In this document: in pieces, positions 1 through 9,558 of the stretch | How the letters are laid out: each line of letters opens with the position of its first letter | Numbering within the stretch: position 1 is the stretch's first letter | Source of the DNA: a virus | Virus genome (UHGV): UHGV-0216281 | Direction: 5' to 3' (one strand) | Length of the DNA: 10,084 bases | Program-made: the position numbers and the translations under genes | The notes under the pieces: generated by a model | The model's database searches: none | What the model was told of the DNA's origin: nothing | The model's input: the letters and a program-made list of their open reading frames with translations, nothing else

Positions 1-108
1 ACCCCCTTTTGATTTCTTGTTTGACACTTGCAGTTGCCAGACCGCAAGGTGTTTTAACAAATCAAAAGGGGTTTGAATAACTGGCTCAAAGCTGAAAGCT
101 TTCCGGAA

Positions 109-131
109 CCCCCAGCCTAGCTGGGGGTTTT
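109..131 (+). terminator. Intrinsic terminator-like hairpin on the plus strand (cccccagc-cta-gctggggg followed by tttt)
   Basis: 8-bp GC-rich perfect stem at 109-116/120-127 with a 3-nt loop, followed by TTTT at 128-131. No plus-strand ORF lies upstream inside the window, so the transcript it would terminate is unknown. Confidence 0.4.
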
Positions 132-271: not shown

Positions 272-1030
272 TTATCTCGTCACCTTTCTCAATTGTGTTT
301 CAGCATATGCTTCTTCCTGCCAGCACTTTGTTACCAGTTTATCAATGACGTCTGCATATCCTTTGTACCACTGATAATCAGTCAGGTCTGGAACCAGCTT
401 CTGGACATGACGTCGTGCCAGTGTAGTTGGTAAACGGCTAAACCGGTTTCCATTGCAACGCCCACAAATCTTATAAACAGGCGTGCCATGAAGCCGGGTC
501 CTTTTTTCATCCAGGACAATACCTTTACCCTTACACCCTCTGCACGCTGTGCTGACTTCTCCCTTACCATGACAATGCTGGCATAGTTCCTTCACCCACT
601 CTTCCTTGATAACAGATTCCCCGCTTCTGGAGTGTTTCACCACCTCGCGCAATACATTATGAAATCCAGTACCAGCACAATGCTCACAGCGAGCCTTACT
701 TGCCGCAGACCTGGAATAATCAGCAAAGGCAAAATTCACAAGGTAAGGAATGATCTGTAGCCGGGTTTCTTCACTCAATTTATTCAATGTCGGGTTATCC
801 AGTGCCATCGCGTAATTGAGCAGACCTTCAATCGCAAACTGAGGATCCTGAACACCAACTTTTGCCAGGAATAAGGCAAACCCAAGCGGTGCTTTCGACT
901 GCACCATCCCCTGCGCAGCCATCACATCCGTAATCGTTAAACCACCAGAGCCTGTCGCCGGTGCGTCATCGCTCAGTTTTGGAGATTTCGGGGAGTAATA
1001 TTTCGGTAAGGCTTCAAGGTTCATGCTCAT
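272..1030 (-). CDS. Late-gene antitermination protein Q-like (QuuQ-like), with four CxxC motifs of DnaJ-type zinc-finger pattern
   Basis: ORF of 252 aa. A GGAGA Shine-Dalgarno abuts the first ATG, so the second ATG at 1024 (250 aa) is the more likely start. Contains CEHCAGTG, CQHCHGKG, CRGCKGKG and CGRCNGNR (CxxCxGxG-like repeats). It is the last gene of the operon and sits directly upstream of a pR'-like promoter, pause element and terminator. The family assignment is from memory of Qin-type Q proteins and is not verified. Confidence 0.65.
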   Translation of the reverse strand: MSMNLEALPKYYSPKSPKLSDDAPATGSGGLTITDVMAAQGMVQSKAPLGFALFLAKVGVQDPQFAIEGLLNYAMALDNPTLNKLSEETRLQIIPYLVNFAFADYSRSAASKARCEHCAGTGFHNVLREVVKHSRSGESVIKEEWVKELCQHCHGKGEVSTACRGCKGKGIVLDEKRTRLHGTPVYKICGRCNGNRFSRLPTTLARRHVQKLVPDLTDYQWYKGYADVIDKLVTKCWQEEAYAETQLRKVTR

Positions 1031-2863: not shown

Positions 2864-3253
2864 TCAGGCGGCTGCACCCGCCGGTTTCTCATACTTACTG
2901 ATAGTGATCTCGACCTTCCCTTTCGGGATAACCGGTCCCCACTCCACCAGCATTCTTTTCACCTGTCTGTCGTCTTCCCACACACCCGCGTGGGTCAGGG
3001 CGTCAAACAGCGCCTTGTTATAGTTGTCCAGATCGCGGATCCGGTTATCCGGAGGAAACAACACGATCTCCACTGAAGCAGGTGCCGACGTTGGTTTTGG
3101 CAGACGACGTAACTGCTCAACTATTGCTGCGCACGCCGCGCTCTGAAATTTTCGCCCCGCCGCGCTTATCAGGCTCTTACCAGCAAATGCCCCTTTGTTG
3201 GGGTGTCGCCAGTAGGTGTTCACGCTGGGCGGGAAAGGCAGGATCAGCTTCAT
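2864..3253 (-). CDS. rusA: Holliday junction resolvase RusA (crossover junction endodeoxyribonuclease)
   Basis: 129 aa. PPDNRIRDLDNYNKALFDALTHAGVWEDDRQV corresponds to the RusA catalytic region (RRDLDN...FDALT...DD) as I recall it. The ATG overlaps the upstream stop in an ATGA junction. Confidence 0.88.
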   Translation of the reverse strand: MKLILPFPPSVNTYWRHPNKGAFAGKSLISAAGRKFQSAACAAIVEQLRRLPKPTSAPASVEIVLFPPDNRIRDLDNYNKALFDALTHAGVWEDDRQVKRMLVEWGPVIPKGKVEITISKYEKPAGAAA

Positions 3254-3576
3254 ACTTTCAGGCCCCTCTCATGTAACCAGTGGGCTGCACGCAGCCTGGC
3301 GTTTTCCTCACCGACAAGCAGTGAGCGGATAATCCCGACCGCCTCGCTGTCGTCGTCCTTCACCGCGGTATGAAGCGTGATCCCCCGGGCCACACCACGC
3401 TTTATCGTGATGACGCCTTTTTTCTCCAGTGCGCGAAGATGCTCCACCGCTGCATTCACCGAACGGTATCCCAGCATGGTTGCCACTTCCTGATTGGTTG
3501 GCGGGAAGCCACGCTCTTTCTGATAAGAAATCAGCATATCCAGCACCTGCTGCTGGCATTGAGTTAACGTCGTCAT
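3250..3576 (-). CDS. LexA N-terminal DNA-binding-domain protein lacking the S24 peptidase domain
   Basis: 108 aa. Residues 3-70 (LTQCQQQVLDMLISYQKERGFPPTNQEVATMLGYRSVNAAVEHLRALEKKGVITIKRGVARGITL) align closely with the E. coli LexA N-terminus ([65 protein letters not shown]). No Ser/Lys dyad region follows. ATGA overlaps occur on both sides. Confidence 0.8.
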   Translation of the reverse strand: MTTLTQCQQQVLDMLISYQKERGFPPTNQEVATMLGYRSVNAAVEHLRALEKKGVITIKRGVARGITLHTAVKDDDSEAVGIIRSLLVGEENARLRAAHWLHERGLKV

Positions 3577-5658: not shown

Positions 5659-5827
5659 GACCGACCTCTATTTCCCTGAATTTACGACGAAACTGTTCGA
5701 GCGGGCTAAAGCACTCATGCTCATAGCCTTCACGGAGGTAGATAACCCGTTGTGTTTCCGGCTCCCAACGAATGACTCTGACGGGCACTCCGTAGTGATC
5801 TTTGAACCAGCGGTTAACTTGTCGCAA
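5648..5827 (-). CDS. Small hypothetical protein (about 60 aa, TTG start) in the alternative frame
   Basis: The frame is open from 5869; a TTG at 5827 is preceded by GGAGA with a 7-nt spacer. The product [59 protein letters not shown] has a globular-looking composition. It overlaps the 112-aa ORF by about 160 nt and the O start by 11 nt. Confidence 0.3.
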
Positions 5828-6006
5828 AGGACTGTCTCCTTCTGCCGGTTGAAATCCCCCACAGCCCACTCAGCAAAGCTGTGGGTTACAATTTCCCTGT
5901 CACCTGGTACATTTACTGCATAGCAATACTCCACCTTCGCTTTTCCACCCGGTACAGGAAGCGCAATCAGTTGCGAGCGACGGTAGTGTGTTGTTAAACT
6001 GTTCAT
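5668..6006 (-). CDS. Hypothetical protein (112-aa ORF), translationally coupled to the cII-like gene
   Basis: The ATG at 6006 overlaps the upstream stop in an ATGA junction, with a GGAGA RBS 9 nt upstream. The N-terminal half looks protein-like; the C-terminal half is Ser-rich and low in complexity. It conflicts with the 5648..5827 frame. Confidence 0.4.
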
Positions 6007-6560
6007 GCGTTAGTTTCTCCACAACCAGAAGCAATCGACGCCACGACGCCCGGAGCTGCACACTCGCGGGCGTCATTACTTTCTGAAACGCAAAAAATTT
6101 TGTAGACAAGTGCTGCATGCTCCTGCAGCTTCGAAATTGAGAGGTACAGCTCGTCGTTAATTGCTGTCTTCTCATGCGGTTCCACTACACCGTCTTCGAT
6201 TGCCGAACGAATCTGTTTTGAATAACTGCCGATCTGTTCAATGACTTCCAGTAAACGCTGGTTAATATCGGCATTGTCCACATCCTCGACGTCAGGAAGA
6301 GACACAAAGACGCCATTTGCAGACTGCGCCACAGCGTCAGCAATGAAGTGAGTGCCACCAGCACGTTGTAAAATCATTGCCCATCCCAGCGGGAAAATCT
6401 GATCGCCATCGGCACGAAGGCGGTTAAATAATGCGTTCTCTGTTACATCCAGCCACTCAGCAGCTTCAGCGTAACCCCCCGGCAACGCCGCGATAGTTTT
6501 TCTGACAGCTTTCACGTACCACTCAGGCTGTTTTTCCACTTTCCAGTGATGATTACCCAC
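6003..6560 (-). CDS. cII-position regulator (YdaT/CP76-like)
   Basis: 185 aa from a GTG start with a perfect AGGAGG RBS and 6-nt spacer. It overlaps the cro-like stop by 8 nt. It sits directly after cro, as ydaT follows ydaS in the Rac prophage. The family assignment rests on position and recollection. Confidence 0.55.
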
Positions 6561-6813
6561 GGCTTACCTCCTGTTCCTGTGGTTTAAACCCATTCTGGTT
6601 TTGGCTAGATTGAAAACGTGCCGGATAAAGAATCTGCATTTCGCTGATTTCACCCTTAAAAAAATTGGCCAGACGTTCTGCAAGATCGATAGATGGAATT
6701 TGTTCCAGTCTTTCAATACGACTCAGCGTCGCTGGATTGACCTGAACGCCAGCAGCAACATGCTGCAAAGTAAATCCGTGCGCCTTACGCACATTCCGTA
6801 ATGGTGATTGCAT
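6553..6813 (-). CDS. cro: Cro-like HTH regulator (YdaS-like)
   Basis: 86 aa, transcribed divergently from the repressor gene. HTH segment GFTLQHVAAGVQVNPATLSRIERL. GGAGG RBS with a short 4-nt spacer. Confidence 0.75.
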   Translation of the reverse strand: MQSPLRNVRKAHGFTLQHVAAGVQVNPATLSRIERLEQIPSIDLAERLANFFKGEISEMQILYPARFQSSQNQNGFKPQEQEVSRG

Positions 6814-6825
6814 ATGACCTCCACA

Positions 6826-6906
6826 TATTGCGTGATAAGCATATTATTTCACGCAAATATTTTGCGCAAGTTGATTTGCTTAACGCGCAATAAAGAAATG
6901 TAATAA
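6826..6906. promoter_or_regulatory. Divergent cI/cro control region: operator-like repeats and candidate pR and pRM promoters
   Basis: 15-bp motif TTGC(A/T)TA-N3-CGCAA at 6876-6890 (plus) and 6828-6842 (minus orientation, ATGCTTATCACGCAA). Extra half-sites TCACGCAA (6849-6856) and palindromic TTGCGCAA (6862-6869) give two TTGCG-N19-CGCAA symmetric units. Candidate pR on the minus strand: -35 TTGCGC (6869..6864), -10 TAATAT (6846..6841). Candidate pRM on the plus strand: -35 TTGCTT (6876-6881), -10 TGTAAT (6899-6904), giving a near-leaderless cI mRNA. Confidence 0.5.
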
Positions 6907-6910
6907 ACGC

Positions 6911-7603
6911 ATGAACATAGGAAACCGAGTCAGACAACTTCGCCAGGCGAAGAACATGAAAATCGCCGATCTCGCTGAAGCAATAGGAGTGGATGCGGCG
7001 AATATCTCACGCCTGGAAACAGGTAAGCAGAAACAATTCACTGAACAAGCCCTGAGTAATATTGCCAGGAGCTTAGGTGTTGATATTGCTGATCTCTTTA
7101 CCTCAGACTTCAAAAGTAATACTGTATGTAAAAACAGTATTAGTGAGGATGTTGCGCAGGTGAAGGATGTATTCCGTATTGAAATGCTGGATGTCAGTGC
7201 CAGTGCGGGAAATGGCCTTATCCAGGGCGGTGATGTCATTGATGTGATTCATGCCATTGAATACAGAACTGATAATGCTGTATCGATGTTTGGCGGACGG
7301 CCAGCCAATCACATTAAAGTTATCAACGTTCGTGGGGACAGTATGTGTCCAACCATTGAGCCAGGAGATCTCATCTTCGTTGATGTCAGTATCAATCAGT
7401 TTGATGGAGATGGTATCTATGTATTTGGTTTTGATGATAAAATTTATGTCAAACGACTGCAAATGATACCTGACAAACTACTGGTGATTTCTGATAACCA
7501 GATTTACCGTGAATGGGGAATTACCAGCGAAAATGAACACCGGTTTATGGTCTTTGGAAAGGTCTTAATCAGCCAGTCACAAACCCTTAAGCGACACAAT
7601 TAA
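6911..7603 (+). CDS. cI: cI-type prophage repressor (N-terminal HTH, C-terminal S24 LexA-like autopeptidase)
   Basis: 230 aa. The N-terminal HTH is IADLAEAIGVDAANISRLETGK. The C-terminus carries the S24 catalytic Ser motif GDSMCPT and the Lys in YVKRL. No Shine-Dalgarno precedes the ATG, consistent with a leaderless message. Confidence 0.9.
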   Translation: MNIGNRVRQLRQAKNMKIADLAEAIGVDAANISRLETGKQKQFTEQALSNIARSLGVDIADLFTSDFKSNTVCKNSISEDVAQVKDVFRIEMLDVSASAGNGLIQGGDVIDVIHAIEYRTDNAVSMFGGRPANHIKVINVRGDSMCPTIEPGDLIFVDVSINQFDGDGIYVFGFDDKIYVKRLQMIPDKLLVISDNQIYREWGITSENEHRFMVFGKVLISQSQTLKRHN

Positions 7604-7623
7604 CCCTTACCTCCTCATCAATT

Positions 7624-7648
7624 AGCCACCCAAAGGTGGCTTTTCATT
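7624..7648 (+). terminator. Intrinsic terminator downstream of the repressor gene
   Basis: Stem agccacc / ggtggct with loop caaa, followed by TTTT(C)ATT. It lies 20 bp after the cI stop. Confidence 0.6.
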
Positions 7649-7658
7649 ACCCTTTAAA

Positions 7659-7711
7659 TTGCATATCTCGCAACAAAAACACTTGCATAATGCGCAACTT
7701 CATTTTATCTT
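7659..7711 (+). promoter_or_regulatory. OL/pL-like region: two copies of the 15-bp operator motif plus a candidate leftward promoter
   Basis: TTGCATATCTCGCAA (7659-7673) and TTGCATAATGCGCAA (7683-7697) match the motif seen in the cI/cro region. Candidate -35 TTGCAT (7683-7688), 17-nt spacer, -10 TATCTT (7706-7711). Confidence 0.4.
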
Positions 7712-8121
7712 TCTTTCCAGACAAACAAACAAGGTACTAACAAAATTTGGTTGTAACACGGCGTATGGCACATGCGTCGTTAGCGGTCTGGGGACGTTAA
7801 AGGGGACAATCCACTCCTTGCTCGGGCAAACAAACCAGGTAGCCGGAATGTGCAAGTCAATGATGATGCTGATAAGACGCCTAACCAGCGTGGCGATTCG
7901 GTTTGACGCCTGGGAAGAGACCAGGGTGCAACGATGAGGGCATTTATGGAGCCGCGACAAAGTGTGGTGCTGTAACTGGCTAAGTGCTCTCAGCGTTGTG
8001 GTAATCCGCGAAATGGCGCGGCGGTAAGTATGGCGGGGTTACTCTTTCCCCGTTGAGGACACCGGATTGTCAGGTTGACCATACGCCTGAGTGACAAGCC
8101 CACCACAACAGCCACTGCTTT

Positions 8122-8168
8122 GGCGGTACCAGTTTGTACACTTGCTTCCGGCTGGTACCGCTCTTTTT
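8122..8168 (+). terminator. Terminator-like hairpin with a T-run (tL1-like), overlapping a boxA-like CGCTCTT core
   Basis: Stem ggcggtaccag (8122-8132) pairs with ctggtaccgc(t) (8152-8162) around a 19-nt loop, followed by CTCTTTTT. CGCTCTT at 8159-8165 matches the core of lambda nut boxA (CGCTCTTA). The loop is large for a canonical terminator. Confidence 0.4.
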
Positions 8169-8257
8169 ACAAAACAGAGAAGAGCATCACCGGACGACGG
8201 GCTCATAACCCAATCCATCCGGGCGGCTGCCACCGCAGGTGTTCTTCTCTGTTTTGT
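8169..8257 (+). repeat. Long-range inverted repeat (15 bp perfect, extendable to about 20 bp with G-U pairs) enclosing about 50 nt, immediately upstream of the yfdP-like start
   Basis: acaaaacagagaaga (8169-8183) is the exact reverse complement of tcttctctgttttgt (8243-8257). Pairing continues through 8188/8238 if G-U pairs are allowed. The interior contains a further small hairpin, gcgg-ctgcca-ccgc. Confidence 0.6.
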
Positions 8258-8305
8258 GGAGAAACCAACCGACCTTGCAGGGTCGATATGATGAGGAGCA
8301 GCAAA

Positions 8306-8668
8306 ATGGCTAGCGAACGCAGTACTGATGTGCAGGCATTTATCGGGGAGCTGGACGGCGGCGTATTTGAAACCAAAATCGGCGCAGTTCTCAGTGAAGT
8401 CGCTTCCGGTGTGATGAACACAAAAACCAAAGGTAAGGTCTCACTCAACCTGGAAATCGAACCATTTGATGAGAACCGTGTGAAAATCAAACACAAACTC
8501 TCATATGTTCGCCCGACTAACCGCGGGAAAATTTCCGAAGAAGACACCACCGAAACGCCGATGTATGTCAATCGCGGTGGTCGCCTGACTATTCTGCAGG
8601 AAGACCAGGGACAATTACTGACTCTTGCCGGTGAACCTGACGGAAAACTACGCGCAGCAGGTCATTAA
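8306..8668 (+). CDS. yfdP: YfdP-like protein (120 aa, unknown function)
   Basis: ATG at 8306 preceded by an AGGAG RBS with a 7-nt spacer. The ORF-track extension back to 8075 (TTG start) has non-protein-like composition and no RBS. The 120-aa size and the order with the following 274-aa and HD-domain genes match yfdP-yfdQ-yfdR of CPS-53 as I recall them. Confidence 0.65.
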   Translation: MASERSTDVQAFIGELDGGVFETKIGAVLSEVASGVMNTKTKGKVSLNLEIEPFDENRVKIKHKLSYVRPTNRGKISEEDTTETPMYVNRGGRLTILQEDQGQLLTLAGEPDGKLRAAGH

Positions 8669-8733: not shown

Positions 8734-9558
8734 ATGTCTCAGAACTTAGACGCAACCGCAATTAATCAAATCCATGCCCTTATTTCTGCTCAGGGTGTTA
8801 ATGAAATTATCAGTAAGATTGGTGCCGATGCTGTGGCATTGCCTGAGAATTTCCGCATTCATGATCTGGAAAAATTTAATTTAAATCGCTTCCGTTTCCG
8901 TGGCGCGCTTTCCACTGCCAGCATCGATGATTTTACCCGTTATTCTAAAGATCTTGCGGATGAAGGCACCCGCTGCTTTATCGATGCCGATAATATGCGT
9001 GCCGTCAGTGTGCTTAACCTGGGTACTATTGATGAGCCTGGTCACGCAGATAACACCGCCACTCTCAAACTGAAAAAGACAGCACCGTTCTCTGCTCTGT
9101 TGTCTGTTAACGGCGAGCGTAACTCCCAGAAGTCACTGGCAGAATGGATTGAAGACTGGGCCGACTACCTTGTGGGCTTTGATGCTAATGGTGATGCCAT
9201 TCAGGCAACAAAAGCGGCTGCGGCAGTCCGTAAAATCACGATTGAAGCAAACCAGACCGCTGATTTTGAAGACAATGACTTCAGCGGCAAACGCTCCCTG
9301 ATGGAGTCTGTCGAAGCGAAGACCAAAGATATTATGCCAGTGGCATTTGAATTTAAATGCGTTCCGTTTGAAGGCCTGAAAGAACGTCCGTTTAAATTAC
9401 GCCTCAGCATTATCACTGGCGATCGTCCTGTACTGGTTCTGCGCATTATTCAGCTGGAAGCAGTGCAGGAAGAAATGGCTAACGAATTTCGTGATCTGCT
9501 TGTTGAGAAATTCAAGGACAGCAAAGTAGAAACCTTTATTGGTACTTTTACCGCCTGA
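8734..9558 (+). CDS. yfdQ: YfdQ-like protein (274 aa, DUF2303-like, unknown function)
   Basis: ATG with a GAGGA RBS and 6-nt spacer. A clean 274-aa ORF with no competing frames. Identity is inferred from size and synteny. Confidence 0.7.

What the first reader, a model, noticed from the sequence alone, without database searches (positions are those of the whole stretch)
6826..7711. Shared 15-bp operator motif at both the cI/cro and the post-cI (pL-like) regions, with additional TTGCG-N19-CGCAA symmetry at OR
The motif TTGC(A/T)TA-N3-CGCAA occurs four times: 6828-6842 (inverted), 6876-6890, 7659-7673 and 7683-7697. These are the positions expected for OR and OL operators of a cI-type repressor, and they overlap the candidate -35 and -10 elements of pR, pRM and pL. 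The OR region also has two 29-bp units with TTGCG...CGCAA ends, which could be separate Cro or cI sites. The number and spacing differ from lambda's three 17-bp sites per operator.
Basis: seen in the sequence. Interest (0 to 1): 0.45.

Follow-up and report, generated by a model that had tools for sequence, protein, structure and literature searches.

The report
Repressor operators of a lambdoid prophage
The four repeated 15-bp motifs are real and are almost certainly the binding sites through which this common E. coli prophage's cI repressor, and probably its Cro protein, control the three early promoters; this is an ordinary kind of phage switch whose operators had not been written down.

Summary
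In detail: four copies at 6828-6842, 6876-6890, 7659-7673 and 7683-7697, against 0.14 expected by chance.

The window is the immunity region of a common E. coli lambdoid prophage (about 97% identical to phage mEp460 and to some Stx2a phages).

In 27 distinct homologous immunity regions from about a dozen enterobacterial genera, the cro-cI spacer aligns without gaps. The same near-palindrome, TTGCG-N5-CGCA(A/T), sits at the same four places. A matrix built only from distant relatives finds exactly these four sites in the window, and only these four in the whole 44.5-kb mEp460 genome.

The motif follows the repressor allele. Phage cdtI has the same flanks but a different cI/cro, and it lacks the motif.

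The sites overlap conserved promoter elements:
- pRM -35, giving a predicted leaderless cI mRNA
- the pR -10 edge and start
- pL -35

No experimental description was found in the library searched. This is a new member of a known kind, of modest interest.

In passing: pL drives a roughly 590-nt non-coding leader. It contains a structured RNA of about 260 nt, absent from Rfam and shared with P1-like and epsilon15-like phages, where it abuts tRNA genes.

The parts
6553..6813 (-). cro-like gene (86 aa, HTH_3)
   Evidence: ORF list. Pfam HTH_3, E 5.8e-10. Annotated Cro in mEp460, SfII and the PhiR phages. Its helix 3, PATLSRIER, resembles that of cI.
6828..6842 (.). OR1-type operator TTGCGTGATAAGCAT. 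It spans -8 to +7 of the predicted pR.
   Evidence: (18.3 bits). Present at -83 from the cI ATG in nearly all of the 27 aligned regions; both half-sites are close to 2 bits per column.
6841..6846 (-). predicted pR -10 (TAATAT on the minus strand); predicted start near 6834
   Evidence: Conserved ATTA block in the gapless alignment. It lies 17 bp from the -35. Inferred; no transcription-start data.
6852..6856 (.). extra CGCAA half-site, specific to this clade; the inner end of the first 29-bp unit
   Evidence: Present in the window, SfII, mEp460 and L007-L009 only; absent from the other lineages.
6855..6869 (.). degenerate middle site (AAATATTTTGCGCAA), occupying -35 to -21 of pR
   Evidence: The equivalent position (-56 from the cI ATG) scores 8 bits or more in 12 of 28 related loci. 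The window's own 15-mer here is not among the two best middle windows; the best anywhere in the window's middle region is -2.3 bits, at -49.
6862..6870 (.). family-invariant TTGCGCAAG. It is the pR -35 (TTGCGC on the minus strand, 6869-6864) and consists of two overlapping operator half-sites.
   Evidence: About 2 bits per column over 9 columns in 27 sequences.
6876..6890 (.). OR3-type operator TTGCTTAACGCGCAA. It spans -35 to -21 of the predicted pRM.
   Evidence: (18.1 bits).
6876..6904 (+). predicted pRM: -35 TTGCTT (6876-6881), 17-bp spacer, -10 TGTAAT (6899-6904). The predicted start is the A of the cI ATG at 6911, so the mRNA would be leaderless.
   Evidence: TGTAAT (TTAAAT in some lineages) is conserved at a fixed distance from the ATG. 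There is no Shine-Dalgarno sequence upstream. Inferred.
6911..7603 (+). cI repressor (230 aa): N-terminal HTH_3 and C-terminal Peptidase_S24
   Evidence: Pfam. PDB matches to a 434-type HTH and to UmuD. The positions equivalent to the LexA-type Ala-Gly cleavage site (A99-G100), Ser (S144) and Lys (K181) are invariant in alignment A1.
7624..7646 (+). intrinsic terminator after cI
   Evidence: 7-bp stem, 5 G-C pairs, T-rich tail. Conserved in position in relatives.
7659..7673 (.). OL2-type operator TTGCATATCTCGCAA. It spans -59 to -45 of the predicted pL.
   Evidence: (17.8 bits).
7683..7697 (.). OL1-type operator TTGCATAATGCGCAA. It spans -35 to -21 of the predicted pL.
   Evidence: (18.8 bits). 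The two OL sites lie 22-24 bp apart in the related regions.
7683..7711 (+). predicted pL: -35 TTGCAT (7683-7688), 17-bp spacer, -10 TATCTT (7706-7711); predicted start near 7718
   Evidence: TATCTT, or a close variant, follows at the same 17-bp spacing in most lineages. Inferred.
7718..8305 (+). long non-coding leader of the early-left operon, upstream of yfdP
   Evidence: No credible ORF. Conserved non-coding modules. Structured RNA.

Best explanation
The four 15-bp near-palindromes (family consensus TTGCG-TAWTA-CGCAA) are the operators of this prophage's genetic switch.

Who binds. Dimers of the cI repressor (HTH plus an S24 self-cleaving domain) bind them in the lysogen.

What each site does (inferred from position):
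- 6828-6842 covers the -10 edge and the start of pR, so it shuts off cro and the early-right operon.
- 7683-7697 is the -35 region of pL. With its neighbour 24 bp upstream (7659-7673), it shuts off the early-left operon.
- 6876-6890 is the -35 region of pRM, so it gives negative autoregulation of the cI mRNA, which is predicted to be leaderless.

Shared design. All three promoters use the operator half-site TTGC(G/A)N as their -35 hexamer, so an operator or operator remnant occupies -35 to -21 of each.

Cro. Its recognition helix resembles that of cI. It is inferred to bind the same sites and to turn off pRM after SOS-induced cI cleavage.

Shown here: the motif, its statistics, its positional conservation, its uniqueness in the genome, and its linkage to the repressor allele. 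Inferred: binding, promoter starts, order of occupancy, cooperativity and the role of Cro.
For: - Four matches against 0.14 expected.
- The cro-cI spacer aligns without gaps in 27 distinct sequences from Escherichia, Shigella, Salmonella, Citrobacter, Klebsiella, Kluyvera, Buttiauxella, Trabulsiella, Pantoea, Mixta, Dryocola, Proteus, Serratia and Phaseolibacter. The conserved blocks are exactly the two 15-mers, TTGCGCAAG and two -10-like hexamers; the rest is unconserved.
- OL has two sites 22-24 bp apart, and the proximal TTGC lies 17 bp from a conserved TATCTT.
- A weight matrix built from 66 sites of relatives with less than 90% cI identity scores the four window sites at 17.8-18.8 bits, with the next best at 7.5. 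In the complete mEp460 genome it scores only the four equivalent sites at 16 or more, with the next best at 9.8.
- Two of the four sites (6828-6842 and 7659-7673) do not overlap a -35 element, so the motif is not merely a promoter element.
- Natural allele swaps: phage cdtI has near-identical ymfL and leader flanks but a different cI/cro, lacks the motif and carries other palindromes (GTACC, GATACAT). A 32%-identical Acinetobacter homologue has TTTAAACC...GGTTTAAA repeats in the same two places.
- Helix 3 of cI (AANISRLE) and of Cro (PATLSRIE) share N/T-(I/L)-S-R-(L/I)-E and are conserved along with the operator core.
- cI has HTH_3 plus Peptidase_S24; Cro has HTH_3.
Against: - There are no binding or transcription-start data.
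- The three promoters match the sigma-70 consensus at only about 7 of 12 positions, and the consensus scan did not list them. It listed a different plus-strand candidate (TCCACA-16-TATTAT, 6820-6847), which is not conserved in relatives.
- A site at -35 to -21 of pRM predicts repression only. How cI synthesis is sustained, or whether it is ever activated as in lambda, is unexplained.
- The window's clade lacks the full middle OR site that 12 of 28 related loci have. The invariance of TTGCGCAAG goes beyond what a -35 hexamer needs.
- Selection of the matrix's training sites used the TTGC-N7-GCAW core, so the matrix is not a fully blind motif discovery.
Confidence: 0.8

Rival explanations
1. The repeats are promoter architecture only (-35-like TTGC plus AT-rich spacers) and are conserved because the promoters are conserved. 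They are not protein-binding operators.
For: Three of the TTGC elements coincide with predicted -35 hexamers (6876, 7683, and 6869 on the minus strand). TTG is the best-conserved part of a -35 element.
Against: Both half-sites are conserved symmetrically, including the GCAA arm, which has no promoter role. Sites 6828-6842 and 7659-7673 overlap no -35 element. The motif is replaced wholesale when cI/cro is exchanged between the same flanks.
Confidence: 0.05
2. The sites are bound by a regulator other than cI or Cro: the CII-like YmfL protein (Pfam Phage_CP76), the small protein with a LexA DNA-binding domain at 3250-3576, or a host factor.
For: YmfL is a predicted transcription regulator encoded next to cro. 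No binding data exclude it.
Against: cdtI and the Stx2c phages keep a near-identical ymfL (98% DNA identity in the flank) but lack the motif, so the motif follows cI/cro and not ymfL. The sites are the only ones in the whole phage genome, and they bracket cI.
Confidence: 0.04
3. The functional units at OR in this clade are the two 29-bp TTGCG-N19-CGCAA elements, or the everted CGCAA-N5-TTGCG at 6852-6866. Examples would be a Cro-specific site, or a tetramer that contacts half-sites 24 bp apart.
For: Two exact copies against 0.03 expected. The inner ACGCAA (6851-6856) is kept in the window, SfII, L008 and L009 although the bases on both sides of it differ among them.
Against: The inner CGCAA is absent from the other lineages, which keep the same cI and Cro recognition helices. 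The outer ends are already explained as halves of the 15-mers. OL has no such unit. Only four distinct sequences support the clade-specific conservation.
Confidence: 0.1
4. Chance clustering of a short GC-containing word in AT-rich intergenic DNA.
For: The 8-base core with one mismatch is not enriched in the window.
Against: and positional conservation in 27 regions.
Confidence: 0.01

Closest known systems
Phage lambda OR/OL with cI and Cro (textbook knowledge, not tested here)
   Same: Divergent cI and cro genes with shared, partly palindromic operators in the spacer. A second operator cluster at the early-left promoter downstream of cI. A repressor with an HTH plus a RecA-dependent self-cleaving S24 domain. 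pR and pRM starts about 77 bp apart here (82 bp in lambda). A leaderless cI mRNA from pRM (predicted here). Adjacent operator centres 22-24 bp apart at OL.
   Different: The operators are 15 bp (up to 19 bp with flanks), not 17 bp, and the sequence is unrelated. The window has two full sites per operator region instead of three. The OR sites are 48 bp apart, with only half-sites between them. The pRM-proximal site sits on the -35 (centre -28), so there is no site at the lambda OR2 activating position (-42). The HTH is of the HTH_3 (434/P22) type. There is no N gene downstream of pL.
Phage 434 and P22 repressor/Cro operators (HTH_3 type; own knowledge)
   Same: The HTH domain family is the same: Pfam HTH_3, and the best PDB match is a designed 434 repressor domain, E 2e-4. 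The half-sites are short 4-5 bp words about 10 bp apart, with an AT-rich, non-contacted centre. Cro and the repressor share a similar recognition helix.
   Different: The half-site is TTGC(G), not ACAA (434) or ATTTAAG (P22). The sites are 15 bp, against 14 and 18 bp. Sequence identity to the solved domains is low.
Stx phage 933W operators (Tyler, Mills and Friedman 2004, listed in the references of bioRxiv 10.1101/348706; content recalled from memory)
   Same: A lambdoid switch in which OL has only two repressor sites. This immunity type is also carried by Stx2a phages (Stx2a_1447, Stx2a_WGPS2).
   Different: 933W OR is reported to have three sites, and its repressor and operator sequences are unrelated. 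Not compared directly here.

Membership tests
Lambdoid cI/Cro immunity switch (OR/OL operators) | Divergently transcribed repressor and cro genes separated by a short spacer that holds repeated, partly palindromic sites | tested here: met
   cro 6813-6553 (minus strand) and cI 6911-7603 (plus strand), with a 97-bp spacer holding two full sites and extra half-sites.
Lambdoid cI/Cro immunity switch (OR/OL operators) | The same motif recurs at the early-left promoter, on the far side of the repressor gene (OL) | tested here: met
   7659-7673 and 7683-7697, directly after the cI terminator and before a conserved -10 element.
Lambdoid cI/Cro immunity switch (OR/OL operators) | Operators overlap the -35, -10 or start of pR, pRM and pL | tested here: inconclusive
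   The geometry is conserved in 27 regions: an operator at -35 to -21 of pRM and pL, and at -8 to +7 of pR. However, the promoters are predicted only, match the consensus weakly, and were not reported by the scan.
Lambdoid cI/Cro immunity switch (OR/OL operators) | The repressor has an N-terminal HTH and a C-terminal LexA/S24 self-cleavage domain with Ala-Gly, Ser and Lys | tested here: met
   Pfam HTH_3 plus Peptidase_S24. A99-G100, S144 and K181 are invariant in A1. The assignment of these residues is by analogy with LexA.
Lambdoid cI/Cro immunity switch (OR/OL operators) | Operator sequence co-varies with the repressor allele (immunity specificity) | tested here: met
   cdtI has the same flanks, another cI/cro and another motif. 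The Acinetobacter homologue L030 has another motif at the same places.
Lambdoid cI/Cro immunity switch (OR/OL operators) | Physical binding of the repressor and Cro to the sites | not testable with these tools
   Needs gel shifts or footprinting.
Lambda-type tripartite operator (three sites per operator, OR2-dependent activation of pRM) | Three full sites at OR and at OL, with the middle OR site at about -42 of pRM | tested here: not met
   The window has two full sites in each region. The best middle-site score is -2.3 bits. 12 of 28 related loci do have a third OR site, but it lies on the pR -35 (centre at -49 from the cI start), not at -42.

The most novel reading that the evidence does not exclude
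The switch is a distinct architecture rather than a lambda copy.

- Each of the three early promoters uses an operator half-site as its -35, so an operator or operator remnant occupies -35 to -21 of pR, pRM and pL.
- This clade has reduced OR to two full sites plus an invariant compressed palindrome, TTGCGCAA.
- The early-left promoter that the operators gate drives no N-type antiterminator gene. It drives a structured non-coding leader of about 450-590 nt. The core of that leader, about 260 nt, is absent from Rfam. It is shared with P1-like and epsilon15-like phages, where tRNA genes directly flank it, as would be expected of a stable RNA that is processed out of its transcript.
Probability: 0.35. 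Interest if true: 0.6.

Novelty: new member of a known kind. Interest (0 to 1): 0.3.

Why it matters
- This immunity type is common. A place covering at least 80% of window 6400-8400 is found in 911 of 5,426 complete E. coli genomes.
- It occurs in Stx2a-converting phages and in Shigella serotype-converting phage SfII. There, repressor-operator strength sets spontaneous induction and toxin or antigen expression.
- A defined operator consensus gives direct targets for reporter, footprint and mutational work.
- It predicts cross-immunity among phages from several genera, because they keep the same recognition helix and operator core.
- As a kind of system it is ordinary. The value lies in annotation and in the comparison with lambda: two-site operators, and a -35 element embedded in each operator.

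Tried and rejected
- Rfam at gathering threshold on the whole window, and at E up to 5 on 7600-8400, found nothing in the finding's region.
- The consensus promoter scan did not return pR, pRM or pL. Its only plus-strand hit at OR (6820-6847) was rejected because its -35 is not conserved in relatives.
- Literal searches of the paper library for six operator strings found nothing relevant. Searches for ST64B or mEp460 together with operator found no description of these operators.
- PDB sequence searches with cI and Cro gave only distant HTH and UmuD matches, so there is no structurally characterised close relative.
- A lambda-like OR2 was looked for at every offset between the two OR sites. 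None exists in this clade.
- The idea that the pL leader element is HK022 put RNA was considered. put is about 70 nt with two stem-loops (PMC9378689), whereas this element is about 260 nt with at least nine helices. Homology was not tested, for lack of put sequences.
- The idea that the CACAACA-plus-terminator segment is the anti-sRNA AgvB was rejected. AgvB lies at the PR' moron site and is 51-60 nt long (PMC4104026).
- ARAGORN finds no tRNA in the window.

Full report
**What is in the sequence.**

The motif TTGCWTANNNCGCAA (one mismatch allowed) occurs four times in the window: 6828-6842 (minus strand, one mismatch), 6876-6890, 7659-7673 and 7683-7697. Chance would give 0.14, and none of 200 shuffles reached four.

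The pentamer TTGCG/CGCAA is not over-represented in the window as a whole (29 found, 33 expected). But five of the 29 copies lie in the 63 bp between 6828 and 6890, and two lie in 7669-7697.

**Context.**

The window is part of an E. coli lambdoid prophage. The stretch 6400-8400 is:
- 97-98% identical to phages mEp460 and PhiR47_1, about 97% to the Stx2a phages 1447 and WGPS2 and to 1720a-02, and 92% to Shigella phage SfII;
- present at 80% coverage or more in 911 of 5,426 complete E. coli genomes.

The genes are:
- a Cro-like HTH protein, 6813-6553 (minus strand);
- YmfL, 6560-6003 (minus strand), Pfam Phage_CP76, the CII family of phage 186;
- a cI repressor, 6911-7603 (plus strand), with HTH_3 and Peptidase_S24 domains;
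- an intrinsic terminator at 7624-7646;
- after a long ORF-free stretch, yfdP (from about 8306) and yfdQ/DUF2303 (8734-9558).

A paper on the related phage SfIV states that SfII, SfV and SfIV lack lambda-type cII, cIII and N homologues (PMC3851460).

**Comparative test.**

I collected homologous immunity regions from two sources:
- the phage collection: SfII, mEp460, ST64B, Eeyore, Klebsiella phage 1 LV-2017 and Citrobacter phiNP;
- species-representative genomes, using a cI alignment as query: 24 loci, with cI identity from 97% down to 32%.

For 27 distinct sequences, the roughly 100 bp between cro and cI align without a single gap.

The information profile has sharp blocks and is flat elsewhere. 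The blocks are:
- TTGCG-N5-CGCAT at -83 from the cI ATG (window 6828-6842);
- ATTA just after it;
- TTGCGCAAG (window 6862-6870);
- TTGC-N7-CGCAA at -35 (window 6876-6890);
- TGTAAT, whose last base lies 7 nt before the ATG.

Downstream of the cI terminator, most lineages carry two further copies 22-24 bp apart. The second copy is followed, 17 bp after its TTGCNN, by TATCTT or a close variant.

**An independent matrix.**

I built a symmetrised weight matrix from 66 distinct sites, all from relatives whose cI is less than 90% identical to the window's.
- In the window it scores the four sites at 17.8-18.8 bits; the next best is 7.5.
- In the complete 44.5-kb mEp460 genome only the four equivalent sites score 16 or more; the next best is 9.8.
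- The consensus is ATTTGCGTAWTACGCAAAT, and the central base is never G or C.

One caveat applies: the training sites were picked by the TTGC-N7-GCAW core.

**Which protein binds.**

Three observations tie the motif to the cI/cro allele.
1. Phage cdtI and the Stx2c phages share near-identical flanks (ymfL on one side, the leader on the other) but carry a different cI/cro pair. In cdtI the motif is absent from both regulatory regions, and other palindromes (TTGTACCC...GGTACAA, GATACAT) take its place.
2. A 32%-identical Acinetobacter homologue has TTTAAACC...GGTTTAAA repeats both upstream and downstream of its repressor gene.
3. Helix 3 of cI (D-A-A-N-I-S-R-L-E) and of Cro (N-P-A-T-L-S-R-I-E) share the pattern N/T-(I/L)-S-R-(L/I)-E. 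Both stay nearly constant across the lineages that keep the TTGC...GCAA core. In phage 434 the repressor and Cro likewise share a recognition helix and operators (own knowledge).

These points argue against YmfL or a host factor. They make cI, and by inference Cro, the binding proteins.

**Promoter geometry (inferred).**

On the plus strand:
- TTGCTT (6876-6881), 17 bp, TGTAAT (6899-6904) places a start on the A of the cI ATG at 6911. No Shine-Dalgarno sequence precedes it. This implies a leaderless cI mRNA, as from lambda pRM (own knowledge for lambda).
- TTGCAT (7683-7688), 17 bp, TATCTT (7706-7711) gives pL, starting near 7718.

On the minus strand:
- TTGCGC (6869-6864), 17 bp, TAATAT (6846-6841) gives pR, starting near 6834. 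That is 21 nt before the cro ATG and upstream of its GGAGG.

So an operator, or an operator remnant, occupies -35 to -21 of all three promoters:
- 6876-6890 for pRM;
- 7683-7697 for pL;
- 6869-6855 for pR.

pR has a further full site at -8 to +7 (6828-6842). pL has one at -59 to -45 (7659-7673).

The hexamers match the consensus at only about 7 of 12 positions, and the consensus scan did not report them. The assignment rests on their invariance and fixed spacing.

**The middle of OR and the 29-bp units.**

At -56 from the cI ATG (the pR -35 position), a third site scores 8 bits or more in 12 of 28 related loci. An example is TAGCGAATTGCGCAA in the Klebsiella phage, at 13 bits.

The window's clade has only the right half there (6855-6869, AAATATTTTGCGCAA). 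The best score anywhere in the window's middle region is -2.3 bits.

The clade instead has an extra CGCAA at 6852-6856. The other lineages lack it.

The 29-bp units are therefore composites, made of:
- the outer halves of the two full operators;
- the invariant TTGCGCAA;
- a clade-specific half-site.

They are not conserved as units. I cannot say whether the inner half-sites are filled cooperatively. The nine-column invariance of TTGCGCAAG goes beyond what a -35 hexamer needs and remains unexplained.

**Mechanism proposed.**

In the lysogen, cI dimers occupy all four sites.
- OR1 blocks pR at its start.
- OL1 and OL2, whose centres are 24 bp apart (about the spacing that allows pairwise cooperativity in lambda; own knowledge), block pL.
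- The pRM-proximal site limits cI synthesis by negative autoregulation.

RecA-stimulated self-cleavage is predicted from the invariant Ala-Gly, Ser and Lys positions and the S24 domain. It would free pR and pL.

Cro would then bind the same sites and silence pRM.

A lambda-like activating contact is unlikely with this geometry, because no site is centred near -42 of pRM in this clade.

Confidence that these are the repressor operators is about 0.8. The finer steps are inference.

**Comparison and novelty.**

This is a standard lambdoid switch in kind. It fails the narrower lambda-type test of three sites per operator with OR2 activation.

No paper in the searchable library contains these operator sequences or describes operators for mEp460, SfII or ST64B. 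The library misses most subscription journals, so prior description cannot be excluded. [quoted passage not shown]

I class the finding as a new member of a known kind, of modest interest.

**Seen in passing: the pL leader.**

The roughly 590 nt from pL to yfdP have no credible ORF and are a mosaic of conserved non-coding modules.

*Module A (about 7745-8001).*
- It is 79-83% identical to unannotated DNA in unrelated phages: P1/P7, where it lies directly after tRNA-Ile and before ban, and phiV10 and other epsilon15-like phages, where it lies directly before tRNA-Arg.
- A 20-nt core word found more than 120 viral contigs.
- Of 128 copies held, 54 abut a tRNA gene, and in every case the tRNA is on the same strand: 27 copies lie just 3' of a tRNA with a CAU anticodon, and 27 lie just 5' of tRNA-Arg.
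- On 17 sequences, a 46-pair structure is 94.3% paired, against 33-38% when the partners are slid. It has 18 pairs with changes on both sides, against 2-6 when slid. None of 500 shuffles reaches any measure. Several conserved G-U pairs make the structure strand-specific.
- Rfam 15 has no match.

*Downstream of module A.*
- A CACAACA motif at 8104-8110. This is the GcvB target consensus quoted in PMC4104026.
- A strong terminator hairpin at 8123-8161, followed by a T tract.
- A hairpin at 8169-8257 with arms of about 20 bp. It shows compensatory differences in ST64B and Eeyore.

The function of the leader is unknown. I did not pursue it beyond this.

Noticed in passing
window 7745-8001 (+): A structured RNA element of about 260 nt in the pL leader. 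It is absent from Rfam. DNA 79-83% identical to it occurs in P1/P7 (between tRNA-Ile and ban), in epsilon15-like phages (directly 5' of tRNA-Arg) and in more than 120 viral contigs. 54 of 128 copies abut a same-strand tRNA. The proposed structure is 94% paired, and 18 of its 46 pairs have compensatory changes, against 2-6 in slid controls. Function unknown. The flanking tRNAs suggest a stable RNA that is processed out of its transcript.
   Followed up: partly
window 7718-8305 (+): The whole stretch from the predicted pL start to yfdP has no credible ORF. Relatives of the ST64B, Eeyore, phiNP and Pantoea types share its 3' two-thirds but carry a different conserved 5' part (CAGCGAACAGGCAGGACGCCCACGAAGTAGCCGCC). 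This phage family is reported to lack N (PMC3851460), so an RNA-based read-through or processing role is conceivable.
   Followed up: partly
window 8104-8168 (+): A CACAACA motif (8104-8110; the GcvB target consensus according to PMC4104026) lies 12 nt before a strong terminator hairpin (8123-8161, GCGGTACCAG...CTGGTACCGC) with a T tract (8164-8168). This is the layout of the 3' end of an Hfq-type sRNA or sponge. The CA-rich motif is kept in the ST64B and Eeyore leaders. The overlapping stretch 7995-8117 matches unannotated DNA in many of the E. coli genomes listed.
   Followed up: no
window 8169-8257 (+): A long hairpin (arms ACAAAACAGAGAAGAGCATCACC and GGTGTTCTTCTCTGTTTTGT) just upstream of the yfdP ribosome-binding site. 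It is conserved, with compensatory differences, in ST64B, Eeyore and phiNP.
   Followed up: no
window 6-129 (-): A full-length Rfam match to STnc490, an Hfq-binding sRNA (143.9 bits, E 4e-30). It lies downstream of the Q-like antiterminator gene (272-1030, minus strand), at the late-promoter or moron position.
   Followed up: no
window 6899-6913 (+): The cI mRNA is predicted to be leaderless: -10 TGTAAT ends 7 nt before the ATG and there is no Shine-Dalgarno sequence. CGC directly before the ATG is conserved in many lineages. With the ATG it forms a CGCAT half-site, and 6898-6912 is the fifth-best matrix hit in the window (7.5 bits).
   Followed up: partly
window 6862-6870: TTGCGCAAG is invariant over nine columns in 27 regions from many genera. 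This is more than a -35 hexamer needs. It is an 8-bp perfect palindrome made of two overlapping operator half-sites. Unexplained.
   Followed up: partly
window 5962-5975: CGCAA-TCAG-TTGCG, an everted pair of operator half-sites like the one at 6852-6866, lies inside the ORF 5668-6006. It may be chance.
   Followed up: no
L007-L029 (cI homologues) and window 6911-7603: The cI recognition helix and the operator core are nearly the same from Escherichia to Proteus and Serratia, at 54-97% overall cI identity. This predicts unusually broad cross-immunity, unless the centre or flank bases set specificity.
   Followed up: no
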